Below, piece by piece: positions 2 to 62,756 of a stretch of DNA of 64,000 nt (positions are counted from its first letter, which is position 1; each line of letters begins with the position of its first letter). The translations under genes were made by a program, and so were the position numbers. Source of the DNA: a virus (Duplodnaviria; Caudoviricetes); the IMG/VR virus record IMGVR_UViG_3300020577_012633, positions 32,001 through 96,000 of that record; one strand, given 5' to 3'. The notes below the pieces were generated by a model. That model had not been told where the DNA came from. It did no database searches and saw only the letters and a list, made by a program, of their open reading frames with translations.

Positions 2-859
2 ACGCAAGGTTGCGCCAAGAGGCATGTTAGGAAGAAGCGCAGCCCAAACCTTCGGGTCGTTGGCGACTTCCTTTGGAACCAACTCGTGAGGAAGCTGATA
101 TTCCTCAACAATCTTAGCAACAATATTCGCGTTCGTCTGGCCCTTGATCTTGTTTGCTCCTTCGAGGATAGACAAACTCTCAGGAACCTTCTTAGGAAGT
201 TCACCGTCCTTGGTTACATAGTTATAGATCATATTGTGAAGTTCATCACCATGAGCGTGACACTTACGCAAGAGATCTGAGTGAGACCAGGCTGACTTTG
301 CGTTACCTTCCTCGGCTGTACGCTGAGGATACTTGACAACCTGAAGCGCAAGGCGATCAGGAGTCATACCGTTGTACCAGTTAGAGAATGCGTTACGAAG
401 TCCTGAACCCCAGCCACGAAGACCGTCAACATAGTGAGCGAATTGGAAAAGATGAGTACCAATACGCGCAACCTTTGGAAGAGAATCAAGAGCAAGGCGG
501 CGAGTAGGAAGATCTCCCTGAGAAGCACAGATTGCAAGCGCAAAGAGAGCAGGATCGTTCTTTGGAGCGCGACCTGAATCGCTAATCTCAACGATCTTCT
601 GAACGGTACGAGTACCGTTTTCTGCAACGCAATCAACGACATTCTTAGCGTTGTCAAGAGCCATCTTGTGCTGAGTGCAATACATAGTTGCACCATCAGT
701 ACCTAGGATGAGGAAGCGATCTAGGCGATCCCACTTGTCAATTTCATAAACATAACCACCTGCGTTATTCTTCACAGTGCCAGGAGTAGGGGTGGTTTGA
801 GAAGTGACCTTTGGGGTCTTGGTAGTAATCGCTGCTGACGCCTTGCTGAACTTTGCCAT
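2..859 (-). CDS. rsr: Ro60/Rsr TROVE-domain RNA-binding protein (C-terminal part runs off the window start)
   Basis: Not in the ORF track because it is truncated. Manual translation from ATG 859 (RBS AAGGAG): MAKFSK...VKNNAGGYVYEIDKWDRLDRFLILGTDG...EISDSGRAPKNDPALFALAIC...VARIGTHLFQFAHYVDGLRGWGSGLRNAFSNWY...LALQVVKYPQR...WSHSDLLRKCH...VWAALLPNMPLGATLR. These are typical Ro60 motifs. Confidence 0.95.
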   Translation of the reverse strand, partial: MAKFSKASAAITTKTPKVTSQTTPTPGTVKNNAGGYVYEIDKWDRLDRFLILGTDGATMYCTQHKMALDNAKNVVDCVAENGTRTVQKIVEISDSGRAPKNDPALFALAICASQGDLPTRRLALDSLPKVARIGTHLFQFAHYVDGLRGWGSGLRNAFSNWYNGMTPDRLALQVVKYPQRTAEEGNAKSAWSHSDLLRKCHAHGDELHNMIYNYVTKDGELPKKVPESLSILEGANKIKGQTNANIVAKIVEEYQLPHELVPKEVANDPKVWAALLPNMPLGATLR

Positions 860-872
860 ATCAAAACTCCTT

Positions 873-1436
873 CTAATCGACTTCAACAGGTGTTGTTGAA
901 GTATTCAAAACTGCCACCTCTGCTATTGAATTTGCAGATCGAGGTTCAGTATACGACTGAGCCTCATAGTGGTCAAGTATAAAATGATTGATTTCTTCTT
1001 TTGTCGGCCTCGGTGGTCTATTTATGAAATCTTCCACCGTATCCTTGAAAACAAAAATATCTTTTACTCTTACTTCTTTTCTCGGGTCAAATGGAGTAAA
1101 CCATTTTTCCTCAACATTTATTTCCATGTACCAGCTATATTGCCAATTTTCTATCGTAAATTCTCTAGGGTCTAAGAACTTTCTACCAGCTATATGAATA
1201 GCTGTAGCTCTATGAAGACCATCATGAACAAACAAAGCTCCATCTTCAAACCTGACAATCTTGATGAGATCGTCAATCTTGAGCAGTTTTGAAGTCTTTT
1301 CAATTTTCTTTTTAGGGAATATTGAAAGATTATCTTTTGTAAAGATTCCACCACTTTTAACAAAATTAACCATTTCTGGTATTTGTTCTGCGTTGCGCAG
1401 ATAATTTTGCATCGGAATGAGAGAATCTACTAGCAT
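873..1436 (-). CDS. ParB/Srx-like fold protein
   Basis: LFVHDGLHRATA resembles the ParB-N DGxHR motif; ends in TAG just upstream of the rsr RBS. Confidence 0.5.
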   Translation of the reverse strand: MLVDSLIPMQNYLRNAEQIPEMVNFVKSGGIFTKDNLSIFPKKKIEKTSKLLKIDDLIKIVRFEDGALFVHDGLHRATAIHIAGRKFLDPREFTIENWQYSWYMEINVEEKWFTPFDPRKEVRVKDIFVFKDTVEDFINRPPRPTKEEINHFILDHYEAQSYTEPRSANSIAEVAVLNTSTTPVEVD

Positions 1437-1440
1437 TTAA

Positions 1441-1564
1441 TGCGTCCGCCGGGATTCGAACCCGGACTATATCTTGGATAGAGATAACCTTTTCCTATCG
1501 ACCTGTTTTACCAGATGTGTTGTTGGTCAAGGGTTTTATGTGCTAGCCATTACACTACAGACGC
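1441..1564 (-). ncRNA. tRNA-like Y RNA (tRNA scaffold with a Y-type stem in place of the anticodon arm)
   Basis: Acceptor GCGTCTG/CGGACGC-A, D arm GTGT-AATGGCTA-GCAC, T arm CCGGG-TTCGAAT-CCCGG. The central ~70 nt has no anticodon arm but has TTGACC (1525-1530) pairing with GGTCGA (1498-1503), then GGTTATCT. Confidence 0.75.
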
Positions 1565-1575
1565 CTTATTCAATT

Positions 1576-1646
1576 GTCAAAAAGAAAACTCAGGTATGGT
1601 AATAGAAGACGGTTTAACTATGATCAGATAACCGTCTTCAATCGAC
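1576..1646 (-). ncRNA. Y-RNA-like module
   Basis: Terminal GTCGA/TTGAC stem, perfect GAAGACGGTT/AACCGTCTTC helix, GGTTATCT motif, pyrimidine-rich 3' linker. Confidence 0.65.
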
Positions 1647-1660
1647 TGGAATCTTCTTCT

Positions 1661-1957: not shown

Positions 1958-2019
1958 GTCAAAGTACCGAATATGTTGTTGAAAAAAGACGTTTTTCAGG
2001 TTAATCTTTTCTCTTCGAC
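1958..2019 (-). ncRNA. Y-RNA-like module
   Basis: GTCGAAG/CTTTGAC terminal stem, GAGAAAAGAT/GTCTTTTTTC helix, GATTAACCT variant motif. Confidence 0.65.
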
Positions 2020-2051
2020 TCGATACAAATGCCTGCAAAGGCCGTCTAAGC

Positions 2052-2150
2052 CTAGGTCAGGAAAAAAGAATCGGAAAAGGTATTAATTGGCGAACGGGTG
2101 CCTTTCGGCGTACTTGCAAATTGTAAGTTAACCGTCCATCCTTCGACCAG
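2052..2150 (-). ncRNA. Y-RNA-like module
   Basis: CTGGTCGAAGG 5' end pairing with CCTGACCTAG, GGACGG/CCGTTC helix, GGTTAACT motif, GCC-GAAA-GGC hairpin, pyrimidine tract. Confidence 0.65.
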
Positions 2151-2206
2151 TTCCGTCTTATTCTATTTTACTGAAAGTTCTTTGGTAGGCGTTTCAGTAT
2201 TTCTTC

Positions 2207-2213: not shown

Positions 2214-2250
2214 AAGAATCAAAAAGAACTTGAATTCTTCCACGAATTTA

Positions 2251-3183
2251 TTATACGGCAGACAAAGAAGGGGAGTCAACAGTCCTCTCTATTTCTTGTG
2301 CTTTTTTGAGCGCAAAATCCTTGGCCTTAAACTCATAATCCAGATCTACATTATAGCCGTAAGTATTTGGAGTATATGTAGGATATTCTGCATGTTTTCT
2401 TGGATTATTTTGACCAGGAAGAGATTCGCAAAAATGAAACAAAGGTTTATAAGAACCCCAAGTCTGAGCGCAAAGCTCAAAAGCTTCTTTTTCTGTGAGT
2501 CCTCCACTATTGCAACGATGGTGCAAATAATCGAATGTTATTGGAATACCAGTAAGACTATGGATATATTCAACTAGATTGCGAGCGTTCCATATTCCTT
2601 TGTCCTCAGTCTCTACCACAAGACGGCTTTTAGCAGCCTCGTCAAGCCTCTCTAAACCATCTTTGAAGCGTTTGGCGATGTCTTTGGGGTCTCCGTTAGA
2701 ACCATTGATATGGATGTTTACAGGCGATTCTGGCGACAATGGAGAGCCAAGCTTAGACATGAACCAGCCATGATGATTCAATTCACGTATCGTGCTATCA
2801 ACTGATTTTTCATTTTTACTCGCAAGAACATTGAATTGGTCTGGATGACAAGAAAGTCTAACATGATTCAGTAAAGCTGCTTCTGCGCAACTAAGAAAAA
2901 GATTATCCAGTTCTTTTACGTTTGGAAGATTTTCCCATTTGATATTTGACTCAGGATGAGTCATAAGCGGGAAGATATCACTACTAACCCGATAGCACCA
3001 TCCATTTGCGATGCAATGAGTTAAAATTTTTCGTATAACTTTCAGATTGTTTTCGTATTTTTCTGAAAGAATAGAAAGAGCTTTATCTTCTAATTGAACG
3101 AATCGAGTCCATGTCATAGTTTGAAAACTATAACCAGACTCTTTTAGACCATTGTGAATGCAACAAAGACCTTTATTACCCAT
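2251..3183 (-). CDS. uvsE: UV-damage endonuclease UvsE/UVDE
   Basis: GLCCI start, YRVSSDIFP, RLSCHPDQFNVLAS, NIHING, LVVETEDKG, ITFDYLHH, PLFHFCES, RKHAEY, EFKAKD; start moved to ATG 3183. Confidence 0.93.
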   Translation of the reverse strand: MGNKGLCCIHNGLKESGYSFQTMTWTRFVQLEDKALSILSEKYENNLKVIRKILTHCIANGWCYRVSSDIFPLMTHPESNIKWENLPNVKELDNLFLSCAEAALLNHVRLSCHPDQFNVLASKNEKSVDSTIRELNHHGWFMSKLGSPLSPESPVNIHINGSNGDPKDIAKRFKDGLERLDEAAKSRLVVETEDKGIWNARNLVEYIHSLTGIPITFDYLHHRCNSGGLTEKEAFELCAQTWGSYKPLFHFCESLPGQNNPRKHAEYPTYTPNTYGYNVDLDYEFKAKDFALKKAQEIERTVDSPSLSAV

Positions 3184-5033: not shown

Positions 5034-6095
5034 TTACTCTACTCCAAAGTATCTCTGGTACAAAGCATCATAGACTCCATTCTCTTTCATCTTCAAAATG
5101 GAGTTGTCAATATCTCTGCGCAAATCACTTCCTTGAGGAAGCGCAATGCCATAAGGCTGTTGGGCGAAAACAGAACCAACAGCAGCAACTTTTCCAGCAC
5201 CAGCATTCTTTGCATAATACTGTAAAGTGGGAGCATCATAAACAATAGCGTCAACTTGACCAGCCATCAACATTTCATAAGCATCATTGATATCAGTAAC
5301 AGCTTTGATATTTGCGCCATATGAATTCAGAACAGGAACACTTGTTGTTCCAGAAACGGTAGCAACATTTTTACCGCGAAGATCCTTCGGTACAGAAAGC
5401 TGATATGTAAAATGGTCAGCAGTCATAGAGGAAGTCATAGACGCTATTGATAGAATGAGTATGAACGTAGTAGAAACAAATCCCACAAGCGTTAATAGTA
5501 TTTGTATAAAACGCATTGCTTTGGATTTTCTTTCTGCAACATCTTTTCCTTTGTAAAAAGCGCATTCTTTTTTAGAAAAAAATTGCTTATGCATCATACT
5601 GTCAATAAATAGCCAAATGAAAATAATAAATGCCAAAGAAAACAAATGAATCCAGGAATTTTCGATGCCTTTTGGAATGTCATTAGTAAAGAATGACTTT
5701 ACAGAATTAAGAACTGTATTAGAATCATTTTCTCGAACCATAATCATTAGACCGGAATTGAAGTATGGAGTCGAAAAATCCATAACTTTATGACGATCGC
5801 TGTTTATGGTAATACTGGACAAAGCAGCATCAGCTTTTTTATCCTTGATTCTATCGAGAAGATCAGGAAAGCTGTCAGTAGAAACAAAATTTGTTTGAAC
5901 TTTGAGATCTTGGGCAATTAGTCTCCAAAGCTCAATATCAAAACCAGAGTATTCTCCATTTGAGTTTTTCACTACAAAAGGATCTGTTTCGTATACTCCA
6001 ACATTTACTGTTCTTACAGGAACCTCTTGAGCTTTTACATTCTCAATAGAAAAAAGCGAAGAGATTGCTAGAACCGCAATACCGAAAATCTTCAT
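5034..6095 (-). CDS. GluR0/iGluR-like protein: split amino-acid-binding domain flanking two TM helices
   Basis: Signal peptide; S1 (GFDIELW, ITINSDRHKVMDFSTPYF); two TM segments; S2 (DLRGKNVATVSGTTS, VDAIVYDAP, YGIALPQGS). Confidence 0.85.
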   Translation of the reverse strand: MKIFGIAVLAISSLFSIENVKAQEVPVRTVNVGVYETDPFVVKNSNGEYSGFDIELWRLIAQDLKVQTNFVSTDSFPDLLDRIKDKKADAALSSITINSDRHKVMDFSTPYFNSGLMIMVRENDSNTVLNSVKSFFTNDIPKGIENSWIHLFSLAFIIFIWLFIDSMMHKQFFSKKECAFYKGKDVAERKSKAMRFIQILLTLVGFVSTTFILILSIASMTSSMTADHFTYQLSVPKDLRGKNVATVSGTTSVPVLNSYGANIKAVTDINDAYEMLMAGQVDAIVYDAPTLQYYAKNAGAGKVAAVGSVFAQQPYGIALPQGSDLRRDIDNSILKMKENGVYDALYQRYFGVE

Positions 6096-18053: not shown

Positions 18054-18127
18054 TGAGGCAGGCGGGACTTGAACCCGCTAGGACATGATTGAAAGTCATG
18101 GCACTCGACCACTTTGTATTCTGCCCC
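18054..18127 (-). tRNA. tRNA-Glu(TTC), atypical D arm
   Basis: GGGGCAG/CTGCCTC, CATGA-CTTTCAA-TCATG, GCGGG-TTCAAGT-CCCGC; A at position 8 and a weak D stem. Confidence 0.8.
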
Positions 18128-42373: not shown

Positions 42374-42448
42374 TGCCCTCGGCGGGACTCGAACCCACAA
42401 CTCTCAGAATTTTAGAGATTCCGGTTCTGCCAATTGAACTACGAGAGC
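42374..42448 (-). tRNA. amber suppressor tRNA (anticodon CTA)
   Basis: GCTCTCG/CGAGGGC-A, D arm GTTC-AATTGGCA-GAAC, anticodon arm GGAAT-CTCTAAA-ATTCT, T arm GTGGG-TTCGAGT-CCCGC. Confidence 0.9.
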
Positions 42449-43832: not shown

Positions 43833-45065
43833 CTAAATGGTAATTTTATCTTTTGCTACCAGCATTGATTTTACGCAATCTCTTCGAGATCCTGAACTAA
43901 CATAAACTCTCAACACATTGCAAGATTTTGCAACAGTATGTATAAGATCATTATACCCTGAAACTTTTACAATTTCATTGTTATTCTTTATTTCTACATC
44001 AGGAGGAATTTGATCAATATGAGTTATTGCAACCTGATGTGAAACTGAAATTTTACTTGTATATGTTTGCTGCAAATCATTTTCTATGGTTTTTGACAAA
44101 AGATCCACATCCAGACATCCAAAACGCAATTTTCCCTGAAATTCATTTGGAACATTAGTGCTATCTTTATAGGAAAGATTAGGATCTTCTGTTGGAAATG
44201 GACCAAGACCATGACGAGTCATGTAAGCTCTAGTTACATATACCGTATCAAGATTTTTGATTTCAAATTCTTTGCAAAGACTAAGTACATTTTTTAGACC
44301 TGTTTTACTTCTTGTTACATGCGGGAAAAATTCATGATCTTCATCTAACAGAAGACCTTGAGCGCCTTCAAAAACAACAGATTCTGCTTGAGAGTCTTCA
44401 AGAACCTCTTTATCGTCAACTATTGTGCTATTTTCAATAAAAAGCTCAATATCACTAATGAAATTCTCTAAAAGATTATCTGAATCAAATATTTCAAAAA
44501 ACTTTTTATCTGGTTTTAGGTTAAGCTGTTCAATACGATTTCGGAAATACCCGTCTCTTAGATGTTCGTATTGTCTTTTTCTTTCTATACGATCTAAATA
44601 TGTTGCAATAGTTGTATGATATGTATCGTTTATATTTTCTATTCCACCAAGAAATCTGGTGACGGTTTCATTAATACCCATTCCACAAGAACCATGTTTA
44701 TTATTTCTTTCTCTCTCAACCTGTTGATTTATCAACATATCATATGGAAGAGTCATGCAAGCAAGATCAGAAACAAACAATTTAGGTTTTTTTATGCCTA
44801 TTCCATTGAGTATTTTGAATTCTTTTTTCCAGAGTATTGGATTGATGATAAAGTAATGACTTAGAAAAGTAGCAGCCCCAGCTAAGGAGCCGCTACCAAA
44901 GTGACTGAAAACATGGCGCAAACCTTCAGGAGTAACAACAGTATGTCCTGCTTGAGCGCCACCGTTATATCTGACAACCAGCGTATCATTGGAGCTAAAA
45001 TAATCGGTCATAAGGCCTTTGCCTTCATCACCAAAGTTCGCTCCAATGATCGCTGTAGCCTTCAT
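43833..45065 (-). CDS. purA: adenylosuccinate synthetase-like protein
   Basis: GANFGDEGKG, RYNGGAQAGHT, HGSCGMG, FEGAQG, TRHG, TNVPNEFQG. Confidence 0.88.
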   Translation of the reverse strand: MKATAIIGANFGDEGKGLMTDYFSSNDTLVVRYNGGAQAGHTVVTPEGLRHVFSHFGSGSLAGAATFLSHYFIINPILWKKEFKILNGIGIKKPKLFVSDLACMTLPYDMLINQQVERERNNKHGSCGMGINETVTRFLGGIENINDTYHTTIATYLDRIERKRQYEHLRDGYFRNRIEQLNLKPDKKFFEIFDSDNLLENFISDIELFIENSTIVDDKEVLEDSQAESVVFEGAQGLLLDEDHEFFPHVTRSKTGLKNVLSLCKEFEIKNLDTVYVTRAYMTRHGLGPFPTEDPNLSYKDSTNVPNEFQGKLRFGCLDVDLLSKTIENDLQQTYTSKISVSHQVAITHIDQIPPDVEIKNNNEIVKVSGYNDLIHTVAKSCNVLRVYVSSGSRRDCVKSMLVAKDKITI

Positions 45066-47825: not shown

Positions 47826-48053
47826 GAGCAAGAACAACAAGGCCTCATAAATGCCGTTCTGTTTTTATCCTATCATTTCTCTAATGGCCTCAACCCGTCC
47901 TCATAGAGCCACCGACACTCTCAGACTGTTTGAGTTGCTACTTAGGTTGTTCAATCGACTTTTCAGGTCTCCAACCGTAGGTGGAGTAGCGGCAATTTTC
48001 CTCACGTCTTTTTCAAGATGGTGCGATAGGCCGGGCCTCGTTGTCCTATGCTC
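47826..48053 (-). ncRNA. rnpB: minimal RNase P RNA
   Basis: P1 GAGCATAGGACAACGAGGCC/GGCCTTGTTGTTCTTGCTC; P2 CCTATC/GATAGG; GAGGAAAATTGCCG and ACAGAACGGCATTTAT forming P4 with a bulged U; P5 GCTAC/GTAGC followed by AA; P6 CCACC/GGTGG; P15 CTCA/TGAG with GGGT; AGAGAAAT before the P2 3' strand. Confidence 0.88.
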
Positions 48054-61227: not shown

Positions 61228-62466
61228 TTATGACAATTTCCTAACTATTTTAACGTTTTTCTTTCCCTTTTTAATTATCAAAAATTTATCATAGAAAAAC
61301 TGATTAATTTTTACGATTGGTTCATTTACTTTTGCGCCATTTATTGTTATACCGCCAGATTCGATTATTCGAACTGCATCTGATTTGCTAGTCGCTAATC
61401 CGCTTTGAATAAGGACTGACACAACCGGAACAGTTTCGCTATCAATGTTTGCAGATCCAAGAACCTTACATGCCAACTCAAATTCTTCTTGGGTTAAATT
61501 ATCCCAATCTTCGTAGTACATTGATCTAGAAATATTCCTACATTTGTAGGCTGAATCTTTACCGTGAACAAGTTCTGTCATTTCTATTGCTAGCGCATTT
61601 TGCAAAATTCTAGCAGATTTGTCTTTATTATGTAGTTCTATATTTGTATCAAGCTGTTCATCTGAAGACAGACTAAACATTTTAAATACATTTTCAATTT
61701 CATCATCTTCAATATTCATCCAAAACTGGAAAAAATCCCATACTGAAGTTTTGGAAGAATCTAGCCAAACTGCTCCTTCAGAAGACTTGCCAAATTTTGT
61801 TCCATCTTTTTTAGTTAGAAGAGGGAAAGTTAATCCGAAAACTTCATTCTTTTTCTTTCTACAAAGCTGTATTCCAGAGCAAATGTTTCCCCATTGGTCA
61901 TTGCCTCCAATTTGAAGTATGCATCTAAATTTTTCAAATAGCATATCAAAATCTGAAGCCTGAAATAAAGTATAACTCATTTCGCCAAAGGTAAGTCCAC
62001 CATTTGACAATCTCGCATGAATAGCTTCATTTTCTAGCATGTTATTAACAGAAAATCTACAAGCAACATCTCTTATAAATTCTAGTATGCTCACATTTTC
62101 GTAAAATGAACCATTAAAAACAATCTGAAAAGGCGCTCCAACAATAAGAGAACACTGTACTGCAATCTTCTGAGAATTTATATGAATTTCATGTTCAGTA
62201 AGTTGAGGCCTATCAGTTCTCCGACCAGTTGGATCTCCAATCATTGCAGTAAAATTACCAACTAAAATTATTGGCATATGGCCATGCTTAGAAAACCTTT
62301 TAAGGGTTATCAATGCAAGAAGATTGCCTACAGTGAGGCTATCTGAAGTTGGATCAAATCCACAATAGACAGGTATAGTTCTATTATCAATGATTTGAGA
62401 GACTTTATCAAAGTCTGAACATTGAGCAATAAGATCTCTAGACTGTAGTTCTTTAAATAAACTCAT
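61228..62466 (-). CDS. tyrS: tyrosyl-tRNA synthetase
   Basis: YCGFDPTSDSLTVGN (HIGH variant), TAMIGDPTG, QIGGNDQWGNI, KFGKS, C-terminal S4 domain. Confidence 0.97.
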   Translation of the reverse strand: MSLFKELQSRDLIAQCSDFDKVSQIIDNRTIPVYCGFDPTSDSLTVGNLLALITLKRFSKHGHMPIILVGNFTAMIGDPTGRRTDRPQLTEHEIHINSQKIAVQCSLIVGAPFQIVFNGSFYENVSILEFIRDVACRFSVNNMLENEAIHARLSNGGLTFGEMSYTLFQASDFDMLFEKFRCILQIGGNDQWGNICSGIQLCRKKKNEVFGLTFPLLTKKDGTKFGKSSEGAVWLDSSKTSVWDFFQFWMNIEDDEIENVFKMFSLSSDEQLDTNIELHNKDKSARILQNALAIEMTELVHGKDSAYKCRNISRSMYYEDWDNLTQEEFELACKVLGSANIDSETVPVVSVLIQSGLATSKSDAVRIIESGGITINGAKVNEPIVKINQFFYDKFLIIKKGKKNVKIVRKLS

Positions 62467-62756
62467 TTTACCTGCCATTCAACTTCAACTGTTTCTGTAT
62501 CAATTTTGTACTTGCCAGAATTTGATCCATACAATTCTGTATCAAGTCCTCTCCAACTTAATGCAATGTTGTGCTTTATTGCAGTCTTTACAAGATGATC
62601 TTCTGGAACTTCTTCAATAGGAACAATGTCCCAAAATGATATATTATTTTTTGAAGAATAATTTATAAGTTCGCAAAGAATACTTCTTTTTGCAGTAAGT
62701 GTCCCAAAAATTCCTTGAATTTTTACTCTTCCTGATTTAGGAGGAATTTCAGCCAT
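62463..62756 (-). CDS. hypothetical protein
   Basis: 97 aa. Confidence 0.6.
   Translation of the reverse strand: MAEIPPKSGRVKIQGIFGTLTAKRSILCELINYSSKNNISFWDIVPIEEVPEDHLVKTAIKHNIALSWRGLDTELYGSNSGKYKIDTETVEVEWQVK

What the first reader, a model, noticed from the sequence alone, without database searches (positions are those of the whole stretch)
1441..1564. tRNA whose anticodon arm is replaced by a Y-RNA stem (circular permutation of YrlA)
Seen: canonical acceptor, D and T arms in normal tRNA order over 124 nt. The anticodon region is an extended stem where TTGACC comes before GGTCGA. Established: YrlA RNAs are tRNA mimics whose 5' and 3' ends form the Ro stem and whose acceptor stem is closed by a loop. 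Inference: this is the opposite permutation, with free tRNA-type ends. It could be matured by RNase P and CCA addition, perhaps aminoacylated, while binding Ro60. It may be an evolutionary intermediate between tRNA and YrlA, or a decoy for anticodon nucleases.
Basis: partly seen in the sequence, partly recalled or inferred. Interest (0 to 1): 0.85.

Follow-up and report, generated by a model that had tools for sequence, protein, structure and literature searches.

The report
tRNA-shaped Y RNA beside phage Ro60
Just upstream of a phage's Ro60 gene lies a 124-base RNA gene built as a complete tRNA, except that the anticodon loop is replaced by the module Y RNAs are thought to use to dock Ro60; it is a back-to-front version of the known bacterial YrlA RNA, and I found no description of it in the papers I could read.

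Summary
On the minus strand, 1564->1441 is a tRNA-like gene (Rfam tRNA 43 bits) with a 7-bp acceptor stem, D arm, variable arm and T arm in normal tRNA order. About 50 nt replace the anticodon stem-loop.

The insert carries the YrlA hallmarks (GNCGA(A/U)NG, then GGUUAUC). It lies 555 nt upstream of a full-length Ro60 gene on the same strand.

It belongs to a family:
- About 21 distinct units in 14 viral contigs and about 10 in 6 bacterial MAG contigs.
- Nine loci lie directly beside Ro60, on the same strand wherever strand was checked.
- 24 of 26 modelled base pairs show compensatory changes, including all seven acceptor pairs.

Both halves align collinearly with closed-acceptor YrlAs, so only the connectivity differs. 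The "circular permutation of YrlA" reading is therefore supported.

It is lower stem, CC/GG stem, a CGAUA/A-C-rich internal loop, and a small capped hairpin.

tRNA-type maturation is likely, because the 3' trailer matches the phage's own CCA-less tRNA genes. Nothing supports aminoacylation. With no anticodon loop, a decoy role against anticodon nucleases is unlikely.

Ro60 binding and expression are untested. Rfam's YrlA model misses the gene. This scan met the same design before on other DNA (e1-5486589, e1-5753165).

The parts
1441..1564 (-). Whole tRNA-order YrlA-type Y RNA gene (124 nt; RNA position p = 1565 - coordinate)
   Evidence: Rfam tRNA 43 bits. Own covariance model R1 scores 102.9 bits, E 5e-19.
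1558..1564 (-). Acceptor stem 5' strand GCGUCUG, pairing with 1442-1448
   Evidence: 7 of 7 pairs in the window. All 7 pairs show double compensatory changes across 24 family members.
1540..1555 (-). D arm GUGU-AAUGGCUA-GCAC (A14, A15, G18 G19, A21 present); U8 at 1557
   Evidence: D stem: 4 of 4 pairs covary.
1533..1539 (-). A-rich linker AUAAAAC between D stem and module (tRNA has a single nucleotide here)
   Evidence: Conserved A-rich linker in both tRNA-order and closed-acceptor YrlAs.
1488..1532 (-). Putative Ro60-docking module replacing the anticodon stem-loop. Lower stem CCUU (1529-1532) / AAGG (1488-1491). Mid stem CC (1525-1526) / GG (1494-1495). Internal loop AACAACAC (1517-1524) opposite CGAUA (1496-1500). 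Capped hairpin AUCUG-GUAAAA-CAGGU (1501-1516).
   Evidence: MFE fold. RNAalifold consensus. Helices 3 and 4 are 90-100% paired with double changes. GUCGAUAG fits GNCGAAN0-1G of Chen 2014 except A->U at position 6.
1466..1487 (-). UUAUC junction (the YUAY motif of YrlA) plus variable-arm hairpin UAUCU-CUAUCCA-AGAUA and UAGU (U48 opposite A15)
   Evidence: GGUUA invariant in 15 of 15 seeds. YUAY begins the V loop in YrlA. A15:U48 or G15:C48 in most members.
1449..1465 (-). T arm CCGGG-UUCGAAU-CCCGG
   Evidence: The loop sequence was fixed by my search pattern, but the stem covaries.
1441..1448 (-). Acceptor 3' strand CGGACGC plus discriminator A (1441). No encoded CCA. The trailer UUAA runs into the ATG of the next ORF (1436).
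   Evidence: 23 of the phage's 24 ordinary tRNA genes are also CCA-less with a UU trailer.
1579..1660 (-). Neighbouring open-ended Y-RNA-like unit. It has the same CGAU / ..CAUAC module, but its terminal stem is formed by its own 5' and 3' ends, and it has no tRNA body.
   Evidence: Motif hit 1627-1646. Stem of 14 of 16 pairs read. No Rfam hit.
1964..2155 (-). Two further Y-RNA-like units carrying GUCGAAG..GRUUAAC (motifs at 2000-2019 and 2127-2147)
2250..2279 (-). Sigma-70-like promoter TTGACT-18-TATAAT at the head of the ORF-free block. No minus-strand terminator was found before Ro60.
   Evidence: 11 of 12 consensus match. Consensus match only.
873..1436 (-). ORF of 187 aa between the RNA and Ro60; no Pfam or PHROG family; HDGLHR motif
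   Evidence: Homologues in the same position in L052 (60% identity) and L045 (43%). The Atlas points to ParB/Srx-like families as a lead only.
2..886 (-). 5' part of the Ro60 (Rsr) gene. It runs off the window; the full ORF is 555 aa at G000:31219-32886.
   Evidence: TROVE 6e-33 and Ro60 vWA 1e-60. E about 1e-113 to solved Ro60/Rsr structures 9NEN, 2NVO, 1YVP.

Best explanation
This is a non-coding Y RNA of the YrlA (tRNA-mimic) class in an unpermuted, tRNA gene order.

Architecture (shown): the RNA keeps a complete tRNA body: a 7-bp acceptor stem with free ends, D arm, variable arm, T arm and an intact elbow. In place of the anticodon stem-loop it has the module that YrlA RNAs carry at their paired 5'/3' ends. 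That module is two short stems, an internal loop with CGA(A/U)N opposite an A/C-rich strand, and a terminal stem that is here closed by a small loop.

Likely life cycle (inferred):
- It is transcribed from the promoter-like site at about 2250 as part of a precursor. The precursor holds three other Y-like RNAs, a 187-aa ORF and rsr.
- It is cut out like a tRNA, by RNase P at G1 and by an RNase Z-type cut after the discriminator. It then receives CCA and tRNA-type modifications.
- The distal module docks the phage Ro60 ring.
- The tRNA-like end serves as the handle for a partner that recognises tRNA.

What is shown and what is not: the architecture, the family, the covariation and the linkage to Ro60 are shown. 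Ro60 binding, processing and the partner are inferred.
For: (1) tRNA body: Rfam tRNA 43 bits with a 65-nt insert at the anticodon core.

(2) A full-length Ro60 gene lies 555 nt downstream on the same strand. The motif GTCGAW..GRTTAWC occurs 4 times against 0.08 expected, and only in the block upstream of Ro60.

(3) Published YrlA hallmarks are present in the published order before the T arm: GNCGAAN0-1G near the Ro-binding end, YUAY opening the V region, and a V arm (Chen 2014).

(4) Family. A pattern scan gave 69 viral loci. Model R1 finds about 21 distinct tRNA-order units in 14 viral contigs and about 10 in 6 bacterial MAG contigs from Myxococcota, Acaryochloris, Gemmatimonadota and Anaerolineales.

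(5) Covariation. 96% of cells are paired against 70% in shuffles and 32-46% when the partners are slid. 24 of 26 pairs show double changes, including 7 of 7 acceptor pairs. Capping loops include UUCG, GCGA, GUAA and GCAA.

(6) Same module, other connectivity. The D-side and T-side halves align collinearly with closed-acceptor YrlAs from cultured Herbidospora and Streptosporangium and from phages. The alignment includes the ..A(C/U)AU(A/C)C motif, which my search pattern did not impose.

(7) Ro60 linkage. Nine loci have the units directly beside Ro60; strand was checked and is shared at the window, L010, L052, L045, L050, L143, L098, L145 and L104. Every sufficiently complete carrier contig encodes Ro60.

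(8) tRNA-type processing.
- The trailer UUAAA matches the UU trailer of 23 of the phage's 24 CCA-less tRNA genes.
- A second unit sits 3 nt after tRNA-Lys.
- Tandem arrays have 3-7-nt spacers.
- M. smegmatis YrlA, which has a 7-bp acceptor stem, is cut by RNase P and gains CCA in vivo.
Against: - There are no expression, end-mapping or binding data, and no RNA run holds the sequence.
- The window's motif is CGAU, not the published CGAA.
- Rfam's YrlA model RF02553 gives no hit at the locus at E<=10. This is expected for a permutation, but it means membership rests on my own model.
- Ascertainment. The T loop, GTCGA and GGTTA were fixed by the search pattern. Seeds were chosen with at least 6 of 7 acceptor pairs. 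The covariation alignment was fitted to the model.
- Several units lie far from rsr inside tRNA clusters, so a Ro60-independent role is possible.
- The bacterial examples are all MAG contigs. These could be phage or prophage DNA.
Confidence: 0.75

Rival explanations
1. A Ro60-independent tRNA mimic. The tRNA-shaped RNA works with another partner, for example the conserved 187-aa ParB/Srx-like ORF or a tRNA enzyme, and merely shares ancestry with YrlA.
For: Units also sit in tRNA clusters tens of kb from rsr. The ORF187 homologue lies between the RNA and rsr in three contigs. Other agents of this scan reported YrlA-like RNAs with non-Ro60 partners; those notes are unchecked.
Against: The conserved internal-loop motif is the one that Ro60 protects in Yrn1 and that YrlA/YrlB share. 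Nine loci are directly beside Ro60. L010 has the RNA about 40 nt from Ro60 with no ORF187 between them.
Confidence: 0.1
2. Mainly a processing signal. On this reading the tRNA-like fold serves as punctuation, so that RNase P and RNase Z release the neighbouring Y RNAs and the ORF187-rsr mRNA. It has no function of its own.
For: It sits between Y-RNA unit C and the ORF, 4 nt before the ATG. tRNA-like punctuation of precursors is a known principle (own knowledge). The Y RNAs of D. radiodurans are co-transcribed with tRNA-Asp.
Against: Punctuation would not require the conserved, covarying 50-nt module. It would not explain tandem arrays of up to four such units, or copies inside tRNA clusters where ordinary tRNAs already do that job.
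Confidence: 0.07
3. A decoding tRNA gene (Ser/Leu type with a long variable arm) that is interrupted by an intron or insert. The insert would be removed to give a normal tRNA.
For: With introns allowed, ARAGORN calls tRNA-Ser(GGA) or tRNA-Leu(UAA) with a 33-35-nt intron. CUUGA.. could supply a UGA anticodon (read).
Against: - The genome has phage gene content, a tmRNA and Ro60-adjacent relatives in bacterial MAGs, so the host is most likely a bacterium (inferred). No bulge-helix-bulge splicing is known in bacteria, and 50 nt is far too short for a group I intron (own knowledge).
- ARAGORN's anticodons and intron positions for relatives disagree with one another: Arg, Gln, Ala, Pro, Ile, Asn, His, at positions 31-40.
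- The supposed intron is the most conserved, covarying part and carries the Y RNA motif.
- The capping loops of 2-11 nt are not anticodon loops.
Confidence: 0.03
4. A decayed tRNA gene or pseudogene that picked up an insertion; no function.
For: Default ARAGORN does not call it, and its Rfam score is the second lowest of the six tRNA matches in the window.
Against: There is a family of about 30 units with compensatory changes in every helix, with conserved genomic context and intact tertiary-contact nucleotides.
Confidence: 0.02

Closest known systems
YrlA (Y RNA-like A; Rfam RF02553; Chen et al. 2014 PMC4201824; structure in Wang et al. 2018, 10.1101/312249)
   Same: Encoded next to and on the strand of Ro60/Rsr. 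Shares the GNCGA(A/U)NG motif, the GGUUAUC/YUAY junction, the V arm, tRNA-like T and D arms with elbow nucleotides, the A-rich linker and the ..AUAUCC-type 3'-side motif. Both halves align collinearly.
   Different: Connectivity. In YrlA the T arm precedes the D arm, the acceptor stem is closed by a loop, and the 5'/3' ends form the Ro-binding stem. Here the D arm precedes the T arm, the acceptor stem is open with tRNA-type ends, and the Ro-type stem is capped by a 6-nt loop. RF02553 does not detect it.
Mycobacterium smegmatis YrlA after processing (Chen et al. 2014)
   Same: A YrlA with a 7-bp acceptor stem that RNase P opens and that gains CCA. It is therefore a Ro60-bound RNA with tRNA-type acceptor ends.
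   Different: That RNA becomes two pieces (82 + 65 nt) held together by pairing, with four ends. The RNA here would be a single chain with only the tRNA-type ends.
Deinococcus radiodurans Yrn1
   Same: A Ro60-bound Y RNA with a T arm whose arm order differs from YrlA. This shows that topology varies among bacterial Y RNAs.
   Different: In Yrn1 the Ro-binding stem takes the place of the acceptor stem and an anticodon-like arm remains. Its D arm is doubtful. It keeps both strands of the metazoan-type GGUCCGA helix.
Ordinary class II tRNA (Ser/Leu) and tmRNA tRNA-like domain
   Same: Acceptor, D, V and T arms in tRNA order, no encoded CCA, and the same UU trailer as the phage's own tRNA genes. 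Like tmRNA, it has a tRNA-like end with free acceptor termini joined to a non-tRNA domain.
   Different: It has no anticodon stem-loop. Across the family there are no conserved identity elements in the acceptor stem or discriminator.
Thermus phage phiLo Yrl1/Yrl2 with phage Ro60 (PMC12135203)
   Same: Phage-encoded Y-like RNAs upstream of a phage Ro60, identified by a CGAA motif in an internal bulge. They are shown to bind the phage Ro60 and host PNPase.
   Different: Those are described as 5'-3' stem / bulge / stem RNAs with open ends. No tRNA body is described.

Membership tests
YrlA-type Y RNA (Chen 2014; RF02553) | Encoded within about 4 kb of a Ro60/TROVE gene, on the same strand | tested here: met
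   The unit's 3' end at 1441 is 555 nt upstream of the Ro60 start on the same strand.
YrlA-type Y RNA (Chen 2014; RF02553) | GNCGAAN0-1G motif at the Ro-binding end | tested here: met
   GUCGAUAG at 1495-1502, with one deviation (A->U at position 6). Family members carry CGAA, CGAU or CGAC.
YrlA-type Y RNA (Chen 2014; RF02553) | YUAY junction, V region, then tRNA-like T arm; tRNA-like D arm with elbow nucleotides | tested here: met
   UUAU at 1484-1487. V hairpin, T arm UUCGAAU, D loop AAUGGCUA.
YrlA-type Y RNA (Chen 2014; RF02553) | T arm 5' of D arm, acceptor stem closed by a loop, 5'/3' ends forming the Ro-binding stem | tested here: not met
   The order is acceptor 5' - D - module - V - T - acceptor 3'. 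No D arm lies downstream, because an ORF starts 4 nt later. The module is capped by a loop.
YrlA-type Y RNA (Chen 2014; RF02553) | Scores at or above the gathering threshold (69 bits) of the Rfam model | tested here: not met
   No hit at the locus at E<=10. The best hit in the genome is 23.8 bits, at a junction between tRNA-Lys and a unit.
YrlA-type Y RNA (Chen 2014; RF02553) | Bound by Ro60/Rsr | not testable with these tools
   Only gene linkage is available.
tRNA (RF00005) | Cloverleaf with 7-bp acceptor stem, D arm, T arm and conserved tertiary nucleotides | tested here: met
   43 bits against a gathering score of 29. The acceptor stem covaries.
tRNA (RF00005) | 5-bp anticodon stem with a 7-nt loop presenting an anticodon | tested here: not met
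   65 nt stand in place of the 13-nt core. The capping loops are 2-11 nt of unrelated sequence. ARAGORN's anticodon calls are inconsistent.
Intron-containing tRNA (archaeal BHB or bacterial group I) | An intron at a splice-competent site whose removal restores an anticodon arm | tested here: not met
   No bulge-helix-bulge is seen in the folds. 50 nt is too short for a group I intron (own knowledge). The insert is the conserved, covarying part.
Ro60/Rsr protein (partner gene) | TROVE HEAT-repeat ring plus C-terminal vWA domain | tested here: met
   PF05731 6e-33 and PF25045 1e-60. E about 1e-113 to 9NEN, 2NVO and 1YVP.

The most novel reading that the evidence does not exclude
The tRNA-order form is the ancestral state of YrlA. 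On this view a tRNA first turned its anticodon arm into a Ro60 handle. Tandem copies, as seen in arrays of 2-4 units, then gave rise to the permuted YrlA by read-through across two units. This would supply the missing step in the published dimeric-tRNA origin model. In today's cells and phages the form is also functionally distinct. It would be a single-chain, CCA-tailed and possibly chargeable Y RNA that brings Ro60 to machinery needing a free acceptor end (CCA-adding and repair enzymes, synthetases, EF-Tu or the ribosome).
Probability: 0.2. Interest if true: 0.85.

Novelty: new variant of a known kind. Interest (0 to 1): 0.66.

Why it matters
Y RNAs tether Ro60 to effectors, but the partner of the tRNA-like YrlA domain is still unknown. 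A natural version with open, tRNA-type acceptor ends matters for four reasons.

1. It narrows and makes testable what that domain must do: RNase P, RNase Z, CCA addition, and perhaps charging.

2. It may account for Ro60-encoding cyanobacteria and delta-proteobacteria where the published model found few YrlAs. The tRNA-order units I found in bacteria come from those groups, among others.

3. It gives a concrete intermediate for the published idea that YrlA arose from dimeric tRNA transcripts.

4. Current annotation misses or mislabels these genes. Rfam calls them weak tRNAs, ARAGORN calls them intron-bearing tRNAs with arbitrary anticodons, and RF02553 is blind to them. tRNA counts in large phages are therefore slightly inflated, and Ro60 partners go unseen.

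Tried and rejected
- Archaeal or spliced tRNA with an intron was my first idea. I rejected it after finding phage gene content, Ro60 next door and conservation of the "intron".
- AACC/GGUU as an anticodon-stem analogue: replaced by CCUU/AAGG, which covaries.
- Close relatives of the Ro60 protein in IMG/VR by peptide patterns: none.
- blastn of the locus and of the 124-nt unit against isolate phages: only a weak Ro60 hit to Sinorhizobium phage Phosso, and nothing for the RNA.
- Sequencing runs: 8 holders, all DNA or unknown (riverine and aquifer metagenomes). No RNA holder is listed, so no reads were laid.
- R1 hits of 50-62 bits in Herbidospora, Streptosporangium and Nonomuraea, and in GC-rich actinophage contigs, turned out to be junctions between two tandem closed-acceptor YrlAs (acceptor 3-6 of 7 pairs). 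I excluded them and kept them as a control.
- My first hairpin-finding script picked spurious long-range pairs and crashed on variant T loops. Only its acceptor, N15/N48, discriminator and short-hairpin columns were used.
- Two reviews by Sim and Wolin (2018, 2020) could not be read, so prior description there cannot be excluded.
- Rfam at permissive thresholds finds nothing for the other units of the block, or for the first-stage "RNase P" candidate.
- Pfam and PHROGs give nothing for ORF187.

Full report
**What is in the sequence**

Read on the minus strand (RNA 5' end at 1564), 1564->1441 is GCGUCUG-UA-GUGU-AAUGGCUA-GCAC, then about 70 nt, then CCGGG-UUCGAAU-CCCGG-CGGACGC-A. Rfam's tRNA model matches exactly these borders at 43 bits (gathering score 29). 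It skips 65 nt where 13 are expected.

Default ARAGORN does not call the gene. With introns allowed it reports tRNA-Ser(GGA) or tRNA-Leu(UAA) with a 33-35-nt "intron" and a long variable arm.

**Context**

- The genome is a 123-kb virus record. CheckV rates it 24% complete.
- It has phage-type genes, 24 or more tRNA genes and a tmRNA.
- The unit is the last element of an 800-nt ORF-free block.
- A promoter-like site (11 of 12 consensus matches) sits at the head of the block, at 2279-2250.
- A 187-aa ORF starts 4 nt after the unit.
- A full-length Ro60 gene follows. It has TROVE and Ro60-vWA domains and matches solved Ro60/Rsr structures at E about 1e-113.
- The motif GTCGAW-N5-11-GRTTAWC occurs four times in the window against 0.08 expected. 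All four lie in this block, on the Ro60 strand.

**What the insert is**

Chen et al. 2014 define YrlA by four things:
- a GNCGAAN0-1G motif near the end that binds Ro60;
- a YUAY that opens the variable region;
- a V stem-loop;
- then the T arm, a closed acceptor stem-loop and the D arm.

The window reads GUCGAUAG-GAAAAGG-UUAU-(V hairpin)-T arm. That is the same series. However, the acceptor 5' strand and the D arm lie upstream rather than downstream, and the two strands of the module are joined by a loop.

**Relatives**

A scan of IMG/VR for GTCGA..GGTTA..GGTTCGAATCC gave 69 loci. The same scan of species-representative genomes gave at least 120.

Fifteen clear tRNA-order units were aligned (A1) and turned into covariance model R1. 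R1 recovers the following:
- The window unit, at 102.9 bits.
- A second unit in the same genome, 3 nt after tRNA-Lys (G000:108506-108627).
- Non-seed units in tandem arrays, for example four in L050.
- Units in bacterial MAG contigs: four in a Myxococcales contig, two in Acaryochloris, and singles in Kofleriaceae, Gemmatimonadota, Anaerolineales and an unclassified MAG.

Ordinary tRNAs score about 30-45 bits with R1. True members score 54-120 bits.

**Structure and covariation**

RNAalifold and pair counting on 24 members give 96% paired cells. Column shuffles give 70%, and sliding the partners gives 32-46%. Double compensatory changes occur in 24 of 26 pairs, including all seven acceptor pairs.

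The conserved fold of the insert has five parts:
- a lower stem (CCUU/AAGG in the window);
- a 2-3-bp stem (CC/GG);
- an internal loop with CGA(A/U)N on the 3' side;
- an A/C-rich strand ending ..A(C/U)A(U/C) on the 5' side of that loop;
- an upper stem closed by a short loop.

The window's cap is AUCUG-GUAAAA-CAGGU. Relatives use UUCG, GCGA, GUAA and GCAA loops, or longer hairpins.

It is 3.3 kcal/mol worse and absent from most relatives.

Caveats on this analysis: the T loop and two motifs were fixed by the search pattern. Seeds were picked with at least 6 of 7 acceptor pairs. The alignment was fitted to the model.

**Is it really a permutation of YrlA?**

I split eight closed-acceptor YrlAs into a T-side half and a D-side half. 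They came from cultured Herbidospora and Streptosporangium and from phage contigs, each next to Ro60. I aligned each half with the matching half of eight tRNA-order units.

Both halves align collinearly. The D-side half shares the A-rich linker, CCCG(U/A)U, and the ..AUAUCC / ..AUACC motif that leads into the terminal stem. My search pattern imposed none of these.

The only difference is where the chain is open. The window's neighbour, unit C (1579-1660), carries the same CGAU / CAUAC module with open ends and no tRNA body. Both connectivities therefore occur in one operon.

Tandem closed-acceptor YrlAs give spurious R1 hits across their junctions. These have only 3-6 of 7 acceptor pairs and long "loops". 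They serve as a useful negative control.

Rfam's own YrlA model finds nothing at the locus.

**Linkage to Ro60**

Nine loci have tRNA-order units directly beside Ro60, on the same strand at each locus where I checked. The other units sit in tRNA clusters. Where those genomes are complete enough to judge, they encode Ro60 elsewhere.

**Likely maturation**

- The acceptor stem is 7 bp and covaries.
- CCA is not encoded.
- The trailer after the discriminator begins UU. The same is true for 23 of the 24 ordinary CCA-less tRNA genes of this phage, and for most family members.
- Arrays have 3-7-nt spacers, as tRNA operons do.
- M. smegmatis YrlA, the one YrlA with a 7-bp acceptor stem, is cut by RNase P and gains CCA in vivo.

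I therefore consider tRNA-type end formation likely (about 0.6-0.7). This is inference.

The discriminator (U, A, G or C) and the acceptor sequence vary freely across the family. No conserved synthetase identity is visible. The lack of any anticodon loop argues against a decoy role for anticodon nucleases.

**Comparison with the literature**

Wang et al. 2018 describe YrlA as resembling a circularly permuted tRNA. They cite a model in which it arose from a dimeric tRNA transcript. A tRNA-order Y RNA that occurs in tandem arrays is the form from which that route would be simplest.

I found no description of this topology in the papers I could read.

Other agents of this scan reported the same design on other DNA (e1-5486589, e1-5753165).

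**Verdict**

- It is a new topological variant of a known kind. It is moderately to highly interesting for Ro60/Y RNA biology and for tRNA annotation in large phages.

Noticed in passing
G000:108506-108627 (-) = L003:12506-12627: A second tRNA-order Y-RNA unit in the same genome. It lies 75 kb from rsr, 3 nt downstream of tRNA-Lys inside the tRNA cluster. R1 scores it 99.6 bits, and its cap is ACC-GAAUA-GGU.
   Followed up: yes
G000: about 115,850-116,010 (-) (L004 about 5850-6010): A closed-acceptor (canonical YrlA-like) RNA in the same phage. It has a terminal stem UAGCUAGU/ACUAGCUA, GUCGAAUGG..GGUUAAC, a T arm, a 7-bp closed acceptor stem and a D arm. Rfam does not call it.
   Followed up: partly
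G000:99826-99957 (-) (L003:3826-3957): Another 130-nt tRNA-like gene (Rfam tRNA 43 bits) with a 57-nt insert in the anticodon region. It lacks the GGUUAUC motif and carries GGUCCGCCGAU. It is either a different or a very divergent module; unexplained.
   Followed up: no
window 873-1436 (-): A 187-aa ORF between the RNA and Ro60, conserved in the same position in two other phage contigs (L052 60% identity, L045 43%). It has no Pfam or PHROG family. An HDGLHR motif and Atlas neighbours point to a ParB/Srx-like fold (lead only). It could be a partner of the RNP.
   Followed up: partly
window 1579-1660, 1964-2026, 2072-2155 (-): Three further Y-RNA-like units share the CGA(A/U)..GRUUAWC module but have open ends and no tRNA body. 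They sit between the promoter-like site and the tRNA-order unit. Rfam finds nothing there.
   Followed up: partly
whole genome G000: None of the 24 ARAGORN tRNA genes encodes CCA, and 23 are followed by TT (often TTATG). This is a uniform 3'-trailer signature that the Y-RNA unit shares.
   Followed up: yes
L003:1317-1667 (-) (G000:97317-97667); window 61228-62478, 43833-45065, 42374-42448: The phage encodes a tmRNA (Rfam 125.8 bits), a tyrosyl-tRNA synthetase, a PurZ-like adenylosuccinate synthetase homologue and a CUA-anticodon (amber suppressor-type) tRNA.
   Followed up: no
window 47826-48053: The stretch that a first-stage note called a minimal RNase P ribozyme has no Rfam match, even at E<=1 on a 700-nt search.
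   Followed up: partly
L116, L132, L118, L130 (Herbidospora, Streptosporangium isolates): Cultured actinobacteria carry two or three tandem closed-acceptor YrlAs upstream of Ro60. Junctions between them mimic the tRNA-order model at 50-62 bits but lack acceptor pairing. This is a trap for automated searches.
   Followed up: yes
window 18054-18127 (-): A sixth tRNA match (Rfam 40.6 bits) next to the two tRNA-Glu genes. ARAGORN does not call it.
   Followed up: no
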